A DNA stretch of 17,587 nucleotides from a virus (Duplodnaviria; Heunggongvirae; Uroviricota; Caudoviricetes): IMG/VR virus record IMGVR_UViG_2660238360_000004, one strand, 5' to 3'. The first letter of the stretch is position 1; every line of letters starts with the position of its first letter. A program made the translations under genes and the position numbers. This document shows positions 1 to 10,777 of the stretch, piece after piece. The notes beneath the pieces were generated by a model, which was given only the letters and a program-made list of their open reading frames with translations, was not told where the DNA came from and did no database searches.

Positions 1-174
1 TCAGAAAAAGATGATATTGAATCGCCCATTGAAAAACTGGAGGGCAGCGTCGCTGATCTGAATAAAAAATTGTCGGTGCTGATTCCTTCTGAAGATGAAA
101 AAAAACGCCGCGATGAGCAGTTTGCGGCGTTTTACGATTATTGCATTGAAGTTACTCTCGCAGGAATTTTGTGA
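1..174 (+). CDS. Hypothetical protein, C-terminal fragment (gene begins upstream of the window)
   Basis: Frame 1 is open from the window edge to TGA at 172-174, reading ...SEKDDIESPIEKLEGSVADLNKKLSVLIPSEDEKKRRDEQFAAFYDYCIEVTLAGIL. Codons are typical enterobacterial choices (CTG, GAA, AAA, GCG, CGC). Absent from the ORF track because it is under 60 aa. It competes with the antisense 137-aa ORF 1..414. Confidence 0.35.
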   Translation, partial: SEKDDIESPIEKLEGSVADLNKKLSVLIPSEDEKKRRDEQFAAFYDYCIEVTLAGIL

Positions 175-527
175 AGATTTTTGAGGAGGGTAAATCTCTT
201 CAGTAAGCTTAATGGCGGACGCTGCAATTAATTCAGGAAGGTCCGCAAGGTCATCTGTCAGTGGATATGATGAAAAATCGGCGGCAGTTCTGTTAAGAAG
301 CGCTTTAACTAATTCCTTTTCCTTCTCCGGCAACAAGTTGATTAGAGCTACGACTGCTTGCCTGAGTGCGATTAAATCAGCAAAAGTTTGTTTAGGTAGA
401 TTTGTGTAATCCATAGTCGCCTCTGTGTTTATCAGATTGACATCCTCCTCCCGCCAGTGCCCATCACTGGTGAGGTAAGATTTAACATATCCGGGGATTT
501 GAAGCCGATAAATCCTGATAAATATCC

Positions 528-1555
<1,028 letters not shown>

Positions 1556-1738
1556 ATTAATATTAAATCGGATTATTTTTAGCGCTGAATGTGAAATTTA
1601 AATAAAAAGGACTCTTCCATGAGTCAAAATCCTTGAAATCTTAAGGGTAAGATAAAAGGTCATTAGACAGAATGACACGTTTTATTAATAAATAAAGCTA
1701 TTGTTTCATTCGTGTGTTTTTCTTTACAAAAGTAATCC

Positions 1739-1915
1739 TTGCTATGGTTGGTTAATCATGCGTTAATGGTGTTCTGGTTTGTTACAAAATTATCTGAAGC
1801 AGTCATTGTTATAATTTTATTATTTGTACCTCTTGAGATTTCCTTGTTGGTTTTTCTCTCTGATATTTTTTTTCGGACCATTCTGCCCAAGGGCTAACTT
1901 CTTCAAAAGGTAATA
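1739..1915 (+). promoter_or_regulatory. Putative promoter and long 5' leader of the cold-shock gene
   Basis: AT-rich 360-bp intergenic region. Candidate -35 TTGCTA at 1739-1744 and -10 TTAATG about 18 bp downstream. That would give a leader of roughly 150 nt ending AAAGGTAATAATG, like the long cspA-family leaders. No transcription start data, so this is inference. Confidence 0.3.
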
Positions 1916-2131
1916 ATGATGTCTAACAAAATGACTGGTTTAGTGAAATGGTTTAACCCTGAAAAAGGTTTTGGTTTCATCACGCCGAAAGATGGTAGCA
2001 AAGATGTGTTTGTCCATTTCTCAGCTATTCAGAGCAACGATTTCAAAACGTTAACTGAGAATCAGGAAGTCGAATTTGGTATTGAGAACGGACCTAAAGG
2101 CCCCGCGGCTGTTCATGTTGTGGCACTTTGA
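1916..2131 (+). CDS. cspI: CspA-family cold-shock protein (start may be the second ATG at 1919)
   Basis: [38 protein letters not shown]... contains the RNP1-like KGFGFI and RNP2-like VFVHF motifs of the cold-shock domain. Family assignment is secure. The cspI symbol rests on the position just after the Rz-like gene as in Qin, and on recalled sequence. Confidence 0.88.
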
Positions 2132-2330
2132 GGTAGAAAATATTACAAACCATATTCACTTTAGATGCCCGTGTTGCCATGGTTCTCAGTATAGAACATC
2201 ATCTTTTGATGTTTCTGACAGGAATCCTTTCGGGGCAAAATGTATCTTTTGTAAATCAATGATGATTACATTTGATAATATTTCACAATACTTAAATGTT
2301 AGCCGTCTATCGTTAGATTTAAGAAAGTGA
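2115..2330 (+). CDS. Hypothetical small zinc-ribbon protein (CxxC...CxxC), start uncertain
   Basis: ORF 2076..2330 with the first plausible ATG at 2115, overlapping the csp stop. Contains CPCC-x20-CIFC. Many rare codons (AGA, AGG, CTA). Followed directly by an intrinsic terminator. Confidence 0.3.
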
Positions 2331-2334
2331 AAAT

Positions 2335-2360
2335 GAAGGCTCCTTCGGGAGCTTTTTTGC
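2335..2360 (+). terminator. Rho-independent terminator downstream of the csp and zinc-ribbon ORFs
   Basis: GC-rich hairpin AAGGCTCC-TTCG-GGAGCTT followed by a T-run (TTTTTT), a few nt after the stop at 2330. Confidence 0.6.
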
Positions 2361-2442
2361 TTAGTGTCTAGTCGATGGATACTCACATATTACGGTAACA
2401 TTATGAAAAAAAATAATAGTTTTTTTTAACTCTGAACCAGCA

Positions 2443-2634
2443 ATGGTAGTGCCAGTGATGACCGGAGTTAACACCATCATGCGTGAATATCCAAATGGCG
2501 AAACAACACACCTCACTGTAATGGCTGCAGGGTTTCCATCTCTGACCGGAGATCATAAAGTCATTTATGTAGCAGCGGATCGACATGTAACTTCAGAAGA
2601 AATTCTGGAAGCAGCAATGAGACTCTTGAATTGA
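2443..2634 (+). CDS. Small hypothetical prophage protein, possibly YnfN/YmcE-like (likely start at 2479, giving 51 aa)
   Basis: ORF ending at 2634; an internal ATG at 2479 gives MREYPNGETTHLTVMAAGFPSLTGDHKVIYVAADRHVTSEEILEAAMRLLN. Sits between the csp gene and the GnsB-like gene, the position ynfN occupies in Qin. The family name is from synteny and length only. Confidence 0.4.
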   Translation: MVVPVMTGVNTIMREYPNGETTHLTVMAAGFPSLTGDHKVIYVAADRHVTSEEILEAAMRLLN

Positions 2635-2751
2635 TTTGATTCTAATGCATTGATAATAAATGATAATCATCTTTATCTGTTTGTGTGAAATTTAGACCGT
2701 CGTATGTTGATTATTGCGATGTTTCATCTTATCTTTTATACGTTTGCTCCA

Positions 2752-2757
2752 TATAAT
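2752..2757 (+). promoter_or_regulatory. Candidate -10 hexamer (TATAAT) for the GnsB-like gene
   Basis: Perfect TATAAT about 50 nt upstream of the GnsB-like start. The -35 match is weak (TTATCT at about 2729-2734). Confidence 0.25.
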
Positions 2758-2806
2758 TGACACTACTGTGTACCAGGAAAGTCATAACAGACTAAAAGAG
2801 GAAATG

Positions 2807-2980
2807 ATGAACATTGAAGAGTTAAAAACAAAAACAGAAGCAGATATTTCTGAATATATAACAAAAAAAATCATTGAGCTTAAGAAAAAGACCGGGAAAG
2901 AAGTTACCAGTATCCAGTTTACTGCACGGGAAAAAATGACTGGTCTTGAAAGCTATGATATCAAGATTGATTTAATCTAG
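2807..2980 (+). CDS. gnsB: GnsA/GnsB-family protein
   Basis: MNIEELKTKTEADISEYITKKIIELKKKTGKEVTSIQFTAREKMTGLESYDIKIDLI is collinear with recalled E. coli GnsB (MNIEELKKQAETEIADFIAQKIAELNKNTGKEVSEIRFTAREKMTGLESYDVKIKIM). AAGAGG Shine-Dalgarno 6 nt upstream. The N-terminal extension in the track (from 2714) covers the promoter region and is probably not coding. Confidence 0.85.
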   Translation: MNIEELKTKTEADISEYITKKIIELKKKTGKEVTSIQFTAREKMTGLESYDIKIDLI

Positions 2981-3040
2981 TCTGTTTAGTATTAGCATCA
3001 ATTTCTCATCAGATGCTATTCAACAATACAAATTACCCAT

Positions 3041-3070
3041 AAACCTCGTTTTTACGGGGTTTTGTTATAT
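3041..3070 (+). terminator. Possible intrinsic terminator after the GnsB-like gene
   Basis: Imperfect hairpin AAACCTCG-TTTTTA-CGGGGTTT (one G-U pair) followed by a T-rich tract (TTGTTATATTT). Confidence 0.35.
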
Positions 3071-3273
3071 TTAAACATTACCGAATAGGTATAAATCTCG
3101 ATTGTCGATGGTATTGGTTGTGTGACAATACCTAGTCTTTCCGGTATGCCTGAAGAGAATACAAACGACAGATTATGTAAGGGAAACGCGCTGAATCTTT
3201 AACTCTTTCATGCTGAGTGATTTGACGTTATATTTTTAGCCGTAAGTGAAGAGCAAACGCATGGAGCGACAAA

Positions 3274-3480
3274 ATGCATAAAGATCAATACACTGATGCC
3301 CCCTCCCAGGAGCAGGTTCGTGTAAAAACTATGCTTAATAGCACCATTTCGATGGGTTACCCGGATGTTGTAATTGCATGTATAGAACATCAAGTGTCTC
3401 TGGAAGCATTCAGGGCAATTGAGGCCGCGTTAGTAAAGCACGATAAGAATACGAAGGATTATTCCCTGGTGGTTGACTGA
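3274..3480 (+). CDS. Hypothetical 68-aa prophage moron protein
   Basis: ATG preceded by GGAG 7 nt upstream. Translation [68 protein letters not shown]. No family recognised by eye. Confidence 0.45.
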
Positions 3481-3812
3481 TCACCATAACTGCTAACCAT
3501 TCTGACCATTTCACAAGTGACAGAGTCAATATCGTATTCTGTCACTGTCAGGCTAATACAGCAATGCAATTCAACTACAGCAATGCCTCGTATTTAGGTG
3601 AATTTACAATATCGTCCAGTTCGGATGCCGGCTGCATTTCTGAAGATAAGGCATTTCGGTTCTCGTATTTTCCCCTCATGCTCGTCAGTCCTGCGCGTAG
3701 TAAGAAACAGGACACTCACACTAATTTGTGTGGGCATGCTGTGATGTCCTTCTGAATTATCCCCATGCCATTATGTAAAGCTCTGTTTCAGATGCTCGTC
3801 ACGGTTGTCAGG

Positions 3813-3890
3813 CTGTCGGGTCCTCCCAGTGGGGGTCCCTGCCACGGGGCGGGAGCGTCGCGGAAAAAGGCTAGTTTTTGCATTTCCATG
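3813..3890. other. cos site (cohesive-end packaging site); putative cosN 12-nt region at 3847-3858
   Basis: CGGGTCCTCCCAGTGGGGGTCCCTGCCACG-GGGCGGGAGCGT-CGCGGAAAAAGGCTAGTTTTTGCATTTCC is collinear with the lambda cos junction as recalled (...ACGGGTCCTTTCCGGTGATCCGACAGGTTACG-GGGCGGCGACCT-CGCGGGTTTTCGCTATTTATGAAAATTTTCC). It lies about 190 bp upstream of the small terminase gene, as in lambda, and is followed by an AT-rich cosB-like segment. Confidence 0.6.
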
Positions 3891-4030
3891 GCGGCGGCAG
3901 CATGTTTGGTAATTTATTGATAATTAAAAGTTATTTCTCTTTTCAGCTGTACAATATTTTTTTCTCCCTGTCATTAGACTAGTTTGCAATTAATTGAAAT
4001 ATATAAATAAACCTGATTTTCACCTGCCAG

Positions 4031-6678: not shown

Positions 6679-6887
6679 ACCAGAATGATATCGAAGCCAT
6701 GATTCAGCGTTATACGGAAGCTGAAATGGCGGTGCTGGACGGAAAATCCGTCACCTTTAATGGTCAGCAGATGACCATGGAAAACTTATCTGAGATCCGG
6801 CAGGGACGGCAGGAGTGGGAGCGCCGCCTTGCGGCTCTGATTACACGACGACGGGGGCATCCCGGGTATCGGCTGGCGAGGTTCTGA
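6675..6887 (+). CDS. gpW-like head-tail joining protein
   Basis: About 70 aa. The ATG at 6675 overlaps the terminase stop (ATGA). Ends ...RRRGHPGY, like lambda gpW (...QRRRGPAGF). Position between terminase and portal as in lambda. Confidence 0.8.
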   Translation: MNQNDIEAMIQRYTEAEMAVLDGKSVTFNGQQMTMENLSEIRQGRQEWERRLAALITRRRGHPGYRLARF

Positions 6888-8395
6888 TGGCAATTCTTGA
6901 TGATGTGATTGGCGTTTTTTCACCAGGATGGAAAGCGGCAAGGCTGCGTTCCCGTGCGGTGATCCAGGCTTATGAGGCCGTAAAAACGACGCGGACACAC
7001 AAAGCCCGACGGGAGAACCGAACTGCCGACCAGTTAAGCCAGTACGGGGCCGTGTCGTTACGTGAGCAGGCCCGTTACCTTGATAACAACCACGATCTGG
7101 TTATTGGTGTATTTGACAAGCTGGAAGAACGGGTGGTGGGGAAAAACGGGATTATTGTCGAGCCACATCCGGTATTACGCAATGGGGCCATTGCCCGTGA
7201 CCTGGCTGCGGAGATTCGCACCCGATGGAGTGAATGGTCTGTCAGCCCGGAAGTCACCGGGCAGTTTACCCGTCCGATGCTGGAACGTCTGATGCTTCGT
7301 ACCTGGCTGCGCGATGGTGAGGTGTTTGCCCAGATGGTTTCCGGGCGCATAAACAGCCTGACGCCTTCTGCCGGTGTTCATTTCTGGCTGGAGGCGCTCG
7401 AGCCGGACTTTATTCCCATGACCAGTGATGAGAGCAACAGGCTGAATCAGGGCGTGTTTGTTGATGACTGGGGGCGTCCCGAAAAATATCTGGTGTATAA
7501 AAGCCGTCCCGTATCCGGACGGCAGATGGAAACCAAAGAAGTGGATGCAGAGCGAATGCTGCATCTTAAATTTGTTCGCCGTCTGCACCAGATGCGCGGG
7601 ACGTCTTTATTGTCCGGTGTGCTGATCCGCCTCAGTGCTCTGAAAGAGTATGAAGATTCTGAGCTGACTGCAGCAAGGATCGCCGCTGCTCTGGGGATGT
7701 ACATCCGGAAAGGCGACGGGCAGAGCTATGAAGCGGATGGTAATGGCAGCAAGGATAAGGAACGCGAGCTTACCATTCAGCCAGGCATTATTTACGATGA
7801 TCTGAAACCCGGCGAAGAAATCGGAATGGTGAAGTCGGATCGCCCCAATCCTAACCTTGAAACTTTTCGTAATGGTCAGTTGCGTGCCGTGGCGGCGGGC
7901 AGTCGTCTGAGTTTTTCCAGTACAGCGCGCAACTATAACGGCACTTACAGCGCCCAGCGTCAGGAGCTGGTTGAATCCACTGATGGCTACCTGATCCTGC
8001 AGGACTGGTTTATTGGTGCCGTCACCCGTCCGATGTATCGTGCCTGGCTGAAACAGGCTGTGGCATCCGGTGTTATCAGGCTACCCCGCGATCTTGACCG
8101 TTCTTCACTGTATACCGCGGTGTATTCCGGACCGGTGATGCCGTGGATTGACCCTGTTAAGGAGGCTGAGGCCTGGAAAATCCAGATTCGTGGTGGAGCG
8201 GCGACAGAATCAGACTGGGTACGTGCTGGTGGTCGTAATCCGGATGATGTCAAACGTCGGCGCAAGGCCGAAATTGATGAAAACCGCAAGCTGGATCTGG
8301 TATTTGATACCGATCCGGCCAGTGATAAAGGAGGCAGCAGTGCCGCAACGAAACGACATGAGCCGCAGCACACCGACGACCAGTCCGAAGAATAA
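6887..8395 (+). CDS. Portal protein, lambda gpB family
   Basis: ATG at 6887 overlaps the gpW-like stop (TGATG), with GGCGAGG upstream. The C-terminal half (SRLSFSSTARNYNGTYSAQRQE...YRAWLKQAV) is collinear with recalled lambda gpB (SVFEQSLLRYIAAGLGVSYEQLSRNYAQMSYSTARAS). The track ORF from 6815 is a read-through extension of this frame. Confidence 0.9.
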   Translation: MAILDDVIGVFSPGWKAARLRSRAVIQAYEAVKTTRTHKARRENRTADQLSQYGAVSLREQARYLDNNHDLVIGVFDKLEERVVGKNGIIVEPHPVLRNGAIARDLAAEIRTRWSEWSVSPEVTGQFTRPMLERLMLRTWLRDGEVFAQMVSGRINSLTPSAGVHFWLEALEPDFIPMTSDESNRLNQGVFVDDWGRPEKYLVYKSRPVSGRQMETKEVDAERMLHLKFVRRLHQMRGTSLLSGVLIRLSALKEYEDSELTAARIAAALGMYIRKGDGQSYEADGNGSKDKERELTIQPGIIYDDLKPGEEIGMVKSDRPNPNLETFRNGQLRAVAAGSRLSFSSTARNYNGTYSAQRQELVESTDGYLILQDWFIGAVTRPMYRAWLKQAVASGVIRLPRDLDRSSLYTAVYSGPVMPWIDPVKEAEAWKIQIRGGAATESDWVRAGGRNPDDVKRRRKAEIDENRKLDLVFDTDPASDKGGSSAATKRHEPQHTDDQSEE

Positions 8396-10367
8396 TTCCT
8401 GGTTCAGGATGCAGGCTGGTCACCAGAGTGACGCGGATATTTATATTTATGACGAGATTGGTTTCTGGGGTGTTACAGCGAAGCAGTTTATCAGTGATCT
8501 GAATGCACTGGGCGATATCACCCACATTAATCTCCATATTAATTCACCGGGTGGCGATGTCTTTGAAGGCATCGCCATTTTTAATGCGCTGAAAACACAT
8601 GGTGCGTCCATTACCGTTTATGTCGACGGTGTGGCGGCGTCAATGGCGTCGGTCATTGCGATGGTGGGAAACCCGGTCATTATGCCGGAAAACACCTTCA
8701 TGATGATTCATAAACCATTTGGCTTTACGGGCGGTGATGCGGAGGACATGCGCACCTATGCCGACCTGCTCGATAAAGTTGAGGCGGTTCTGTTACCCGC
8801 TTATGCACAGAAAACCGGGAAAACCACCGATGAAATTGCTGCCATGCTGGCGGATGAGACCTGGATGTCCGGTGCCGAATGTCTGGCACATGGATTTGCT
8901 GATCAGGTAACGCCAGCCGTTAAGGCAATGGCATGTATTCAGTCAAAACGTACAGAGGAATTTAAAAAGATGCCGGAATCCATTCGAAACATGATTACTC
9001 CGCCACGCAACAGTGCTCCACGCGTACAGGATAATGAACCTGAAGCCTCCCGGACGCCAGTGCAGGCAGCAGCACCCGTGGTGGATGAAAACAGCATCCG
9101 TGCGCAGGTACTGGCAGAGCAAAAAGCGCGTGTAAACGGTATTAATGATCTGTTTGCCATGTTTGGCGGGCGTTATCAGACGCTGCAGGCTCAGTGTCTT
9201 GCCGATCCTGAATGTTCGCTGGAGCAGGCCCGCGAAAAGCTGTTGAACGAGATGGGGCGCGAGTCCACGCCATCCAATAAAAATACCCCGGCTCATATTT
9301 ATGCCGGTAACGGTAATTTTGTGGGGGACGGGATCCGCCAGGCGCTGATGGCGCGTGCCGGATTTGAAAAAACCGAACGTGATAATGTCTACAACGGGAT
9401 GACCCTGCGTGAATATGCCCGTATGTCACTGACTGAACGGGGTATTGGGGTTTCCAGTTATAACCCGATGCAGATGGTCGGTGCGGCGTTCACACACAGT
9501 ACGTCTGACTTCGGTAATATTCTGCTGGATGTTGCGAACAAAGCCATTCTGCAGGGCTGGGAAGATGCCCCTGAAACCTATGAACAGTGGACGCGGAAAG
9601 GTCAGTTGTCTGATTTTAAAATTGCCCATCGTGTGGGTATGGGTGGCTTCAGTGCTCTGCGTCAGGTGCGTGAAGGGGCGGAATATAAATACGTCACCAC
9701 CGGAGATAAACAGGCCACTATTGCACTGGCGACCTATGGCGAGCTGTTCAGTATCACCCGTCAGGCCATTATCAATGATGATCTGAATATGCTGACCGAT
9801 GTCCCGATGAAACTGGGCCGTGCGGCGAAATCCACTATTGCCGATCTGGTTTATGCCATTCTGACGTCTAACCCGAAAATCTCCACAGATAATGTAAGTC
9901 TGTTCGATAAAGCGAAACATGCAAACGTACTGGAGAGCGCTGCAATGGACGTGGCATCGCTGGATAAAGCCCGCCAGTTGATGCGCGTTCAGAAAGAGGG
10001 GGAGCGTCATCTGAATATTCGTCCTGCGTTCGTACTGGTACCGACGGCGATGGAGTCTGTTGCTAACCAGGTCATTCGCTCCTCAAGTGTCAAGGGGGCT
10101 GACATTAACGCCGGTATTATTAACCCGGTGAAAGATTTTGCGACCGTTATTGCAGAGCCTCGTCTTGATGATAACAGCCAGACCACCTTCTACCTGGCTG
10201 CGTCAAAAGGCTCCGATACGATTGAAGTGGCTTATCTCAACGGTGTGGATACGCCATATATTGATCAGATGGAGGGCTTCAGTGTGGATGGCGTGACAAC
10301 GAAAGTGCGTATTGACGCCGGTGTCGCGCCAGTTGATCACCGCGGTCTGGTGAAATGTACGGCGTAA
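8340..10367 (+). CDS. Fusion protein: ClpP-like (S14) prohead protease, helical scaffold-like linker, HK97-fold major capsid domain
   Basis: One uninterrupted frame. The N-terminal region has ClpP-type motifs (INSPGGDV, a Ser in VAASMASV, a His in MIHKP). The middle is Ala/Gln/Glu-rich and helical. The C-terminal roughly 350 aa look like a major capsid protein. Start is uncertain: GTG at 8340 has AAGGAGG 5 nt upstream; ATG at 8409 is the alternative. Confidence 0.85.
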   Translation: MPQRNDMSRSTPTTSPKNNSWFRMQAGHQSDADIYIYDEIGFWGVTAKQFISDLNALGDITHINLHINSPGGDVFEGIAIFNALKTHGASITVYVDGVAASMASVIAMVGNPVIMPENTFMMIHKPFGFTGGDAEDMRTYADLLDKVEAVLLPAYAQKTGKTTDEIAAMLADETWMSGAECLAHGFADQVTPAVKAMACIQSKRTEEFKKMPESIRNMITPPRNSAPRVQDNEPEASRTPVQAAAPVVDENSIRAQVLAEQKARVNGINDLFAMFGGRYQTLQAQCLADPECSLEQAREKLLNEMGRESTPSNKNTPAHIYAGNGNFVGDGIRQALMARAGFEKTERDNVYNGMTLREYARMSLTERGIGVSSYNPMQMVGAAFTHSTSDFGNILLDVANKAILQGWEDAPETYEQWTRKGQLSDFKIAHRVGMGGFSALRQVREGAEYKYVTTGDKQATIALATYGELFSITRQAIINDDLNMLTDVPMKLGRAAKSTIADLVYAILTSNPKISTDNVSLFDKAKHANVLESAAMDVASLDKARQLMRVQKEGERHLNIRPAFVLVPTAMESVANQVIRSSSVKGADINAGIINPVKDFATVIAEPRLDDNSQTTFYLAASKGSDTIEVAYLNGVDTPYIDQMEGFSVDGVTTKVRIDAGVAPVDHRGLVKCTA

Positions 10368-10390: not shown

Positions 10391-10410
10391 GGCCCGTAAG
10401 GGCTTTTTTT
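10391..10410 (+). terminator. Possible weak intrinsic terminator just after the capsid gene
   Basis: Short GC hairpin GCCC-GTAA-GGGC followed by seven T residues, 25 nt after the capsid stop. A second 7-bp hairpin without a T-run (CAGCCCC-TGAA-GGGGCTG) follows at 10422-10439. Confidence 0.4.
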
Positions 10411-10453: not shown

Positions 10454-10777
10454 ATGGCAAAGAATTTTGTAGAAGAAGGAAAAACGGTGGCGATTGTTGC
10501 CAGTGCAGCCATCAGCAGCGGAGATCTGGTGCAGGTGGGTGATGTTTTTGCGGTGGCGCTGACCGATATTCCACAGGGTGAAACAGGCGACGGCATGACC
10601 GAAGGTGTGTTTATCCTGCCTAAACTGAAAACGGATGACATGAAAACGGGTAAGAAGGTTTATCTGAAGTCCGGAAAAGTTCAGCTGACTAACAGCGGCT
10701 CTGATCCGCTGGTCGGGGTTGTCTGGGCAGATGCCGGAACCAGTGCAGAAGAAGTGCCGGTAAAACTCAATGTCTGA
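10454..10777 (+). CDS. DUF2190-like small head protein (putative capsid decoration or cement protein)
   Basis: 107 aa from an ATG with GGAGA 5 nt upstream. Gly/Val-rich, beta-like sequence. Position directly after the major capsid gene. Family assignment is from memory of DUF2190, not a search. Confidence 0.55.
   Translation: MAKNFVEEGKTVAIVASAAISSGDLVQVGDVFAVALTDIPQGETGDGMTEGVFILPKLKTDDMKTGKKVYLKSGKVQLTNSGSDPLVGVVWADAGTSAEEVPVKLNV

What the first reader, a model, noticed from the sequence alone, without database searches (positions are those of the whole stretch)
8340..10367. Prohead protease, scaffold-like linker and major capsid protein in one polypeptide
Lambda encodes protease (C), scaffold (Nu3), decoration (D) and capsid (E) separately. 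Here a ClpP-type serine protease domain (INSPGGDV, Ser in VAASMASV, His in MIHKP), an Ala/Gln-rich helical linker and an HK97-fold capsid domain sit in one roughly 680-aa ORF, implying assembly-coupled autoprocessing. The protease is of the ClpP (S14) type, not the S49 type of lambda gpC. The start codon is ambiguous (GTG 8340 inside the portal gene end, or ATG 8409).
Basis: partly seen in the sequence, partly recalled or inferred. Interest (0 to 1): 0.45.

Follow-up and report, generated by a model that had tools for sequence, protein, structure and literature searches.

The report
Known protease–scaffold–capsid fusion gene (Gifsy-2 type)
One 675-codon prophage gene really does join a ClpP-like head protease, a helical middle segment and the major capsid protein, but this is the well-known Gifsy-2-type capsid gene, which has its own curated NCBI family and occurs in over a third of complete E. 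coli genomes.

Summary
Window 8340..10367 (+) is one uninterrupted ORF of 675 codons. It has three parts: a ClpP-fold serine protease (about residues 20-192; Ser101, His124, Glu173), a middle segment (flexible Pro/Ala-rich stretch 193-249, three-helix domain 250-307, flexible 308-326), and an HK97-fold capsid domain (about 327-675).

It is not new. NCBIfam NF045540, [quoted passage not shown], matches at 986 bits against a cutoff of 475. The DNA is at least 99% identical to phages mEp460, cdtI and Ayreon, and 100% identical to E. coli strain 104. 2017 of 5426 complete E. coli genomes hold the gene. The protein is 70% identical end to end to the Salmonella phage Gifsy-2 "tripartite capsid gene" (Effantin et al. 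2010), in the same gene order and followed by the same decoration protein.

More than 100 clusters, 34-60% identical to the window protein, keep the same architecture with the catalytic Ser and His intact, so a sequencing artefact is excluded.

The start-codon ambiguity resolves to GTG 8340. It has a strong AAAGGAGG ribosome-binding site and RefSeq uses it. ATG 8358 and ATG 8409 are not conserved.

Self-processing is inferred from homology, not shown for this phage. Low interest; already known.

The parts
6887..8395 (+). Portal gene (lambda-family portal). Its last 56 nt overlap the start of the fusion gene in another frame.
   Evidence: Pfam Phage_portal_2, E 5.9e-82. ATG 6887 gives 502 aa. 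RefSeq annotates the equivalent ORF as a portal protein.
8327..8334 (+). Shine-Dalgarno sequence AAAGGAGG, 5 nt upstream of GTG 8340.
   Evidence: Read directly from the sequence. Duplex energy with the anti-SD is -11.6 kcal/mol, the strongest of all in-frame start candidates in the ORF.
8340..10367 (+). Complete fusion gene: ClpP-like prohead protease, scaffold-like middle segment and major capsid protein (675 aa, 73.6 kDa).
   Evidence: NCBIfam NF045540, 985.9 bits against a cutoff of 475, covering residues 32-674. PHROG 133 covers 15-675. RefSeq CDS in the same place and with the same start. 70% identity to the Gifsy-2 gene over the whole length.
8397..8915 (+). ClpP-fold serine protease domain (about residues 20-192). 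Catalytic codons: Ser101 at 8640-8642, His124 at 8709-8711, Glu173 at 8856-8858.
8916..9086 (+). Poorly conserved Pro/Ala-rich linker (residues 193-249). It contains the conserved aromatic-x-x-x-Pro motif (Phe208...Pro212). Residues 223-245 are predicted disordered.
   Evidence: pLDDT below 50 for 223-245. Low conservation and many gaps. Pro212 is present in 138 of 143 sequences.
9087..9260 (+). Three-helix middle domain (residues 250-307), the presumed internal scaffold (delta-like) domain.
   Evidence: Helices 250-273, 280-288 and 294-306 at pLDDT 90-97. Arg264 is at least 90% conserved in 143 sequences. No Pfam family matches it. The scaffold role is inferred.
9261..9317 (+). Flexible stretch (residues 308-326) between the helical domain and the capsid N-arm. 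This is the most likely place for the maturation cleavage.
   Evidence: pLDDT falls to 55-71 and is below 50 at 322-324. Cleavage here is inference only.
9318..10364 (+). HK97-fold major capsid protein domain (about residues 327-675, roughly 38 kDa).
10391..10410 (+). Terminator-like hairpin GGCCC-GTAA-GGGCT followed by TTTTTTT, between the capsid gene and the decoration gene.
   Evidence: Pattern scan and the sequence itself. The equivalent site is annotated as a rho-independent terminator in mEp460.
10454..10777 (+). Head decoration (cement) protein gene, 107 aa, partner of the capsid domain.
   Evidence: Pfam Phage_cement_2, E 1.3e-20. PHROG 122 'head decoration', E 1.4e-46. 61% identical to the Gifsy-2 protein in the same position.

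Best explanation
This is the Gifsy-2-type 'tripartite' capsid gene of an ordinary E. coli lambdoid prophage in the mEp460/cdtI group.

Proposed mechanism:
1. Translation starts at GTG 8340 and makes a 73.6-kDa polyprotein.
2. The C-terminal HK97-fold domains assemble into the shell of a procapsid. It is T=7 in Gifsy-2, which means about 415 subunits.
3. Each subunit carries its own helical scaffold-like domain and its own ClpP-like protease on the inside.
4. Once concentrated inside the shell, the protease (Ser101/His124/Glu173) cuts at the flexible stretches, most likely within 308-326 and probably also within 193-249.
5. The protease and scaffold pieces are degraded and leave. This leaves a mature capsid protein of about 38-40 kDa.
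6. The shell then expands on DNA packaging and is stabilised by the 107-aa decoration protein encoded just downstream.

Shown here: the single ORF, the three folds, the conserved catalytic residues, the start site, the synteny and the family membership.

Inferred from the relative and from general head-assembly knowledge: cleavage, the cleavage positions, the scaffold role of the middle domain and the stoichiometry.
For: - Single ORF with no stop.
- Pfam CLP_protease plus Phage_capsid_4 in one protein.
- NF045540, 'ClpP-like prohead protease/major capsid protein fusion protein', at 986 bits against a cutoff of 475.
- 70% identity over residues 18-674 to the Gifsy-2 gene, and 61% for the downstream decoration protein.
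- The same order in Gifsy-2 (small terminase, large terminase, small ORF, lambda-family portal, fusion gene, decoration gene) and in a Pseudomonas phage.
[quoted passage not shown] 2010. Gifsy-2 has T=7 and a trimeric protein at its 3-fold axes.
- AlphaFold2 model at pLDDT 88.4, with ordered domains separated by disordered stretches 223-245 and about 308-326.
- Ser101 98%, His124 99% and an acidic residue at 173 in about 95% of 128 diverse full-length fusions.
- More than 100 of the best 150 cluster representatives keep the full architecture at 34-60% identity to the window protein.
- The gene is in 2017 of 5426 complete E. coli genomes.
- GTG 8340 has the best SD (-11.6 kcal/mol) and is the RefSeq start.
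Against: - Nothing in the sequence contradicts the model.
- There are no experimental data for this phage: processing, the cleavage positions and the scaffold function of residues 250-307 are all inferred.
- The Effantin 2010 paper could not be read with these tools. What it showed beyond 'genes are fused', T=7 and a decoration trimer rests on my recollection of its abstract.
- The third catalytic residue is Glu rather than the Asp of ClpP.
- The AlphaFold2 pTM is only 0.58, so the arrangement of the domains relative to each other is not predicted.
Confidence: 0.9

Rival explanations
1. The fusion is an artefact or a pseudogene: two or three separate genes (protease, scaffold, capsid) joined by a sequencing error or a frameshift mutation in a decaying prophage.
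For: Artefactual fusions do occur at this locus. The protein database holds 1135-1159-aa portal+protease+capsid 'proteins' whose junctions differ from one sequence to the next.
Against: - The same uninterrupted architecture occurs in isolated, plaque-forming phages such as mEp460, cdtI, Ayreon and Tritos.
- It occurs in Gifsy-2 and in Pseudomonas phages at 56% identity.
- It occurs in more than 100 cluster representatives and in 2017 E. coli genomes.
- A curated NCBI family is defined on the fusion itself.
Confidence: 0.01
2. The gene is nested like lambda C/Nu3. Besides the full-length polyprotein, an internal start makes a protease-less scaffold-capsid protein, so only a minority of shell subunits carry a protease. 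The best candidate is ATG 8970 (Met211), 9 nt after a GAGGAA.
For: - Met211-Pro212 is invariant in the 41 enterobacterial and pseudomonad homologues.
- ATG 8970 has a modest SD-like sequence (-6.0 kcal/mol).
- Two database representatives (P0349, P0286) contain only the middle and capsid parts.
- Lambda makes Nu3 in this way (my own knowledge).
Against: - In the 143-sequence alignment position 211 is Met in only 34 sequences and is Ala, Val, Ile or Pro elsewhere. The neighbouring Pro212 is kept in 138, so the conserved feature is a peptide motif, not a start codon.
- The SD is far weaker than that of GTG 8340.
- Whether P0349 and P0286 are complete genes was not checked.
Confidence: 0.07
3. 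The ClpP-like domain is a catalytically dead structural or scaffold module, and maturation cleavage, if there is any, is done by a host protease.
For: The third triad residue is Glu, not Asp. No activity data exist for this protein.
Against: Ser101 and His124 are 98-99% conserved across fusions only 34-60% identical to the window protein. Position 173 is acidic in about 95% of them. This pattern is expected for an active enzyme. The fold superposes on active ClpP at 1.9 A.
Confidence: 0.02

Closest known systems
Salmonella phage Gifsy-2 'tripartite capsid gene' (STM1034.3n in NC_010393; Effantin et al. 2010, Virology 402:355)
   Same: ClpP-like protease, middle domain and capsid protein in one ORF. 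70% amino-acid identity over the whole length. The same flanking genes: lambda-family portal upstream with an overlapping start, and a 107-aa decoration protein downstream at 61% identity.
   Different: The Gifsy-2 protein is 696 aa as annotated, with a longer and unrelated N-terminal leader and small indels in the linker. Gifsy-2 has been studied by cryo-EM; this phage has not.
NCBIfam NF045540 (scaf_prot_MCP1), 'ClpP-like prohead protease/major capsid protein fusion protein', as in phages mEp460, cdtI, Ayreon and Tritos
   Same: The window protein is a full-length, high-scoring member (986 bits). It is at least 99% identical in DNA to these phages and 100% identical to a prophage of E. coli strain 104.
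   Different: Nothing of substance. This copy has Met at residue 7 where relatives have Arg. GenBank annotations disagree on the start and on the name, using 'protease/scaffold', 'major head protein' or 'Nu3'.
Phage HK97 gp4 protease and gp5 (delta domain fused to the capsid protein)
   Same: An internal scaffold-like domain is fused to the N-terminus of an HK97-fold capsid protein and removed by a phage protease inside the procapsid (my own knowledge of HK97). The HK97 fold was confirmed here.
   Different: In HK97 the protease is a separate gene and belongs to a different family, not the ClpP fold. HK97 stabilises its shell by covalent cross-links rather than by a decoration protein.
Phage lambda C / Nu3 / D / E
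   Same: A lambda-family portal and a gpA-type large terminase sit upstream. The general logic of protease, scaffold, capsid and decoration protein is shared. The Gifsy-2 capsid is T=7 with trimers at its 3-fold axes, as in lambda.
   Different: Lambda keeps E and D as separate genes and nests Nu3 inside C. The S49/SppA model scores far below its cutoff here, 22 against 155 bits. The decoration protein here belongs to Phage_cement_2.
Capsid-protease fusion genes of actinobacteriophages (for example Arthrobacter clusters AN, AU and AW, and Microbacterium cluster EE)
   Same: Capsid and maturation protease are encoded as one gene, and this is routinely noted in genome announcements.
   Different: Different hosts. 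Homology and domain order were not compared here.

Membership tests
NCBIfam NF045540: ClpP-like prohead protease/major capsid protein fusion protein | Whole-protein score above the curated cutoff of 475 bits | tested here: met
   985.9 bits, E 1.1e-296.
NCBIfam NF045540: ClpP-like prohead protease/major capsid protein fusion protein | End-to-end match, so that both the protease and the capsid parts lie in one polypeptide | tested here: met
   Residues 32-674 match profile positions 2-651 of 652. There is no stop in 8340-10364.
ClpP-type (MEROPS S14-like) serine protease | ClpP/crotonase fold | tested here: met
ClpP-type (MEROPS S14-like) serine protease | Catalytic Ser and His at the ClpP positions | tested here: met
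   Ser101 aligns with the Ser of the ClpP motif G-x-A-A-S-M, and His124 with the His of MIHQP. They are conserved at 98% and 99% in 128 diverse fusions.
ClpP-type (MEROPS S14-like) serine protease | Catalytic Asp as the third triad member | tested here: inconclusive
   The aligned position holds Glu173: Glu in 84% and Asp in 10% of homologues. An acidic residue is kept, but it is not the canonical Asp. Activity was not tested.
ClpP-type (MEROPS S14-like) serine protease | Proteolytic activity | not testable with these tools
   This needs biochemistry or a Ser101Ala mutant.
HK97-fold major capsid protein | HK97 fold in the C-terminal domain | tested here: met
Gifsy-2-type head module | Synteny: small terminase, gpA-type large terminase, small ORF, lambda-family portal, fusion gene, decoration gene | tested here: met
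   Window genes against the Gifsy-2 record. The same order occurs in a Pseudomonas phage.
Gifsy-2-type head module | Proteolytic removal of protease and middle domain to give a mature capsid protein; T=7 shell with decoration trimers | not testable with these tools
   T=7 and the decoration trimer are reported for Gifsy-2 in papers citing Effantin 2010. No data exist for this phage.
Lambda gpC-type (S49/SppA) prohead protease | Match to the S49/SppA peptidase family above its threshold | tested here: not met

The most novel reading that the evidence does not exclude
Besides the full-length polyprotein, the gene might yield a protease-less scaffold-capsid product. This would come from internal initiation at ATG 8970 (Met211), which is invariant together with Pro212 in the enterobacterial and pseudomonad members and is preceded by GAGGAA. 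The protease-to-capsid ratio would then be tuned as lambda does with C and Nu3. The evidence does not exclude this for the enterobacterial/pseudomonad branch. It argues against it as a family-wide feature, because Met is present at that position in only 34 of 143 diverse members.
Probability: 0.06. Interest if true: 0.3.

Novelty: already known. Interest (0 to 1): 0.08.

Why it matters
This adds little. Fusing the protease, an internal scaffold and the capsid protein is an elegant way to guarantee that all three are packaged together in fixed proportion. However, it was described for Gifsy-2 in 2010, it has a curated NCBI family name, and it is among the commonest prophage genes in E. coli.

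The useful outputs here are practical ones:
- the start codon is GTG 8340;
- the domain boundaries are defined by a confident structural model;
- the likely catalytic residues are Ser101, His124 and Glu173;
- GenBank names for this gene are inconsistent ('Nu3', 'protease C', 'major head protein', 'protease/scaffold').

Tried and rejected
- The first AlphaFold2 run, with 41 homologues at 53-95% identity to the window protein, was poor (mean pLDDT 48.7; capsid part below 50) and was discarded. A 143-sequence alignment fixed it.
- Sequence searches of the PDB gave little for the capsid and decoration parts. With the whole protein or the family profile, every match shown was a ClpP. The capsid part alone matched only weakly to capsid chains named as Mu GpT domain proteins (E 2e-4). 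The decoration protein matched nothing meaningful.
- The Effantin 2010 paper and the Casjens-Hendrix lambda review could not be retrieved. Two literature searches found nothing. Several papers that mention Gifsy-2 say nothing about the cleavage site.
- Internal initiation at Met211 was considered and judged unlikely.
- ATG 8358 and ATG 8409 were rejected as starts. ATG 8358 has no SD (0.1 kcal/mol) and relatives have Arg there. ATG 8409 has no SD (-2.2 kcal/mol) and is Ile in Gifsy-2 and Pseudomonas. A start at 8409 would also cut off the conserved Ser-Trp-(Phe/Tyr) motif.
- A programmed portal-protease frameshift was considered because of the 1159-aa database proteins. It was rejected because their junctions all differ. 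The open stretch of the protease frame inside the portal gene is not statistically unusual (roughly p = 0.06, my estimate from the stop counts).
Full report
**1. What is in the sequence**

The + strand has an open frame from 8148 to a TAA at 10365-10367, with no internal stop. It follows a lambda-family portal gene (6887-8395; Pfam Phage_portal_2, E 5.9e-82). That gene is preceded by a gpA-type large terminase and a DUF1441 small terminase.

Pfam places CLP_protease (E 2.7e-36) at the N-terminus and Phage_capsid_4 (E 2.3e-54) at the C-terminus of the same protein.

**2. Start codon**

Three in-frame starts were possible: GTG 8340, ATG 8358 and ATG 8409.

- GTG 8340 is preceded by AAAGGAGG at 8327-8334 with a 5-nt spacer. 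Its predicted pairing with the anti-Shine-Dalgarno sequence is -11.6 kcal/mol. That is the strongest of all in-frame candidates and comparable to the large terminase start at -10.2 kcal/mol.
- ATG 8358 (0.1 kcal/mol) has no such site. It exists only in this copy; close relatives have Arg there.
- ATG 8409 (-2.2 kcal/mol) has no such site either. The residue is Ile in Gifsy-2 and in Pseudomonas relatives. Starting there would remove the conserved Ser-Trp-(Phe/Tyr) motif just upstream.
- Gifsy-2 and a Pseudomonas phage also have SD-preceded starts 25-30 codons upstream of that motif.
- RefSeq uses the GTG 8340 equivalent. The mEp460 GenBank record uses the ATG 8409 equivalent.

I take GTG 8340 as the start. 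This gives 675 aa and 73.6 kDa, with a 56-nt overlap with the portal gene.

**3. Anatomy**

A first AlphaFold2 run with 41 homologues was poor. A second run with 143 homologues gave mean pLDDT 88.4. It shows the following parts.

| Residues | Feature |
|---|---|
| 1-17 | Disordered, unconserved leader |
| about 20-192 | Alpha/beta protease domain |
| 193-249 | Weakly conserved, Pro/Ala-rich stretch; disordered at 223-245 |
| 250-307 | Confident three-helix domain (helices 250-273, 280-288, 294-306) |
| 308-326 | Second flexible stretch |
| 327-675 | Large domain |

The middle segment is not especially Ala/Gln-rich: Ala 12% and Gln 7% over residues 193-330.

**4. Catalytic residues**

In the alignment to solved ClpP structures, Ser101 and His124 fall on the ClpP catalytic Ser and His. 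The ClpP catalytic Asp aligns with Glu173.

In 128 full-length homologues taken from clusters at 50% identity, Ser101 is kept in 98% and His124 in 99%. Position 173 is Glu in 84% and Asp in 10%.

This pattern fits an active serine protease with an acidic third residue. It argues against a dead domain.

**5. Is it real, and how common is it**

- The DNA of 8340-10367 is at least 99% identical to isolated phages mEp460, cdtI, Ayreon, Tritos, phi458 and others.
- It is 100% identical to a prophage in E. coli strain 104. 2017 of 5426 complete E. coli genomes hold at least 80% of the gene, and 771 hold at least 80% of the whole window.
- 80 phage records hold at least 80% of the protein in one place, including a Pseudomonas phage at 56% identity with the same gene order.
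- In a search of 1.84 billion cluster representatives, most of the best 150 are full-length fusions. The 114 of them placed in alignment A2 are 34-59% identical to the window protein.

**6. What it is**

NCBIfam NF045540, [quoted passage not shown], matches end to end at 985.9 bits against a cutoff of 475. RefSeq gives the gene exactly that name.

The protein is 70% identical over residues 18-674 to the Gifsy-2 gene at 22471-24561 of NC_010393. The 107-aa protein encoded next (10454-10777; Pfam Phage_cement_2, PHROG "head decoration") is 61% identical to the Gifsy-2 protein in the same position.

Gifsy-2 is the studied example. [quoted passage not shown] 2010)". [quoted passage not shown]

From my own recollection of the abstract of Effantin et al. 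2010, which I could not read here:
- the paper describes a ClpP-like protease at the N-terminus, a central domain of about 200 residues with a possible scaffolding role, and the capsid protein at the C-terminus;
- it reports cryo-EM maps of procapsids and capsids fitted with HK97 gp5 and lambda gpD.

**7. Mechanism**

The best-supported account runs as follows.

1. The polyprotein assembles through its HK97-fold domain into a procapsid, with the protease and helical domains inside.
2. The protease then cuts in the flexible stretches.
3. The internal pieces leave, and a capsid protein of about 38-40 kDa remains. Residues 312-675 would be 39.6 kDa and residues 331-675 would be 37.6 kDa.
4. The shell expands and binds the decoration protein.

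A rough estimate from my own figures: about 415 copies of a 36-kDa internal part come to about 15 MDa, which would fill roughly a third of a T=7 procapsid cavity. That is physically feasible.

Shown here: the ORF, the folds, the conserved catalytic residues, the synteny and the family membership. Inferred: the cleavage itself, its positions and the scaffold role of residues 250-307.

**8. Rivals**

- Artefact or pseudogene fusion is excluded by the conservation described above.
- A nested internal start at Met211 (ATG 8970; weak GAGGAA, -6.0 kcal/mol) was considered, because Met211-Pro212 is invariant among 41 close homologues. In the 143-sequence alignment, however, Met occurs in only 34 sequences while Pro212 occurs in 138. 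The conserved feature is therefore a peptide motif, not a start codon.
- An inactive protease domain is unlikely, given the conservation of Ser and His.

**9. Novelty**

This is already known. It is a routine member of a named family, and its closest studied relative was published in 2010. Capsid-protease fusions are also routinely noted in actinobacteriophage genome papers. Interest is low.

Noticed in passing
window 8148-8395 (end of the portal gene, protease frame open): The protein database holds many 1135-1159-aa 'proteins' that join portal, protease and capsid and are 99% identical to this window. Their junctions lie at different codons in different entries, so they look like independent indels or sequencing errors, not a programmed frameshift. 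One representative only 37% identical to the window protein (P0385, 1224 aa) has the same three-way fusion.
   Followed up: partly
window 10391-10410: A terminator-like GC hairpin followed by seven T sits between the capsid gene stop and the decoration gene start. The same site is annotated as a rho-independent terminator in mEp460. Its role inside a late operon is unexplained; it is presumably read through under Q antitermination.
   Followed up: no
window 8856-8858 (Glu173): The third catalytic-triad position of the ClpP-like protease is Glu where ClpP has Asp. It is Glu in 84% and Asp in 10% of 128 diverse fusion proteins.
   Followed up: partly
window 8358-8360: This copy has ATG (Met7) where close relatives encode Arg. 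This creates a misleading extra start candidate.
   Followed up: yes
window 8961-8975 and 9270-9272: Two prolines in otherwise variable stretches are kept across 143 diverse homologues: Pro212 in 138 of them, within an aromatic-x-x-x-Pro motif, and Pro311 in 125. They lie on either side of the helical middle domain (Pro212 about 38 residues before it, Pro311 just after it). They may mark domain caps or protease recognition sites.
   Followed up: no
proteins P0349 (468 aa) and P0286 (443 aa), from the representatives search: These relatives match only the middle and capsid parts (query 223-672 and 258-674) and have no Clp domain by Pfam. This suggests that HK97-like scaffold-capsid versions with a separate protease exist in the same family. 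Whether the two genes are complete was not checked.
   Followed up: no
window 1-4000: Upstream of the packaging genes lie lysis and moron genes like those of prophage Qin: rrrQ lysozyme, rzpQ, cold-shock genes cspI and ynfQ, ynfN, and gnsB. This is according to the RefSeq annotation of a 99%-identical prophage.
   Followed up: no
GenBank records matched by window 8340-10367: Names given to this same gene in public phage records are inconsistent: 'head-tail preconnector protease C', 'preconnector protein Nu3', 'major head protein', 'putative protease/scaffold protein' and 'head maturation protease'. The annotated start also differs: the ATG 8409 equivalent in mEp460 against the GTG 8340 equivalent in RefSeq.
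   Followed up: yes
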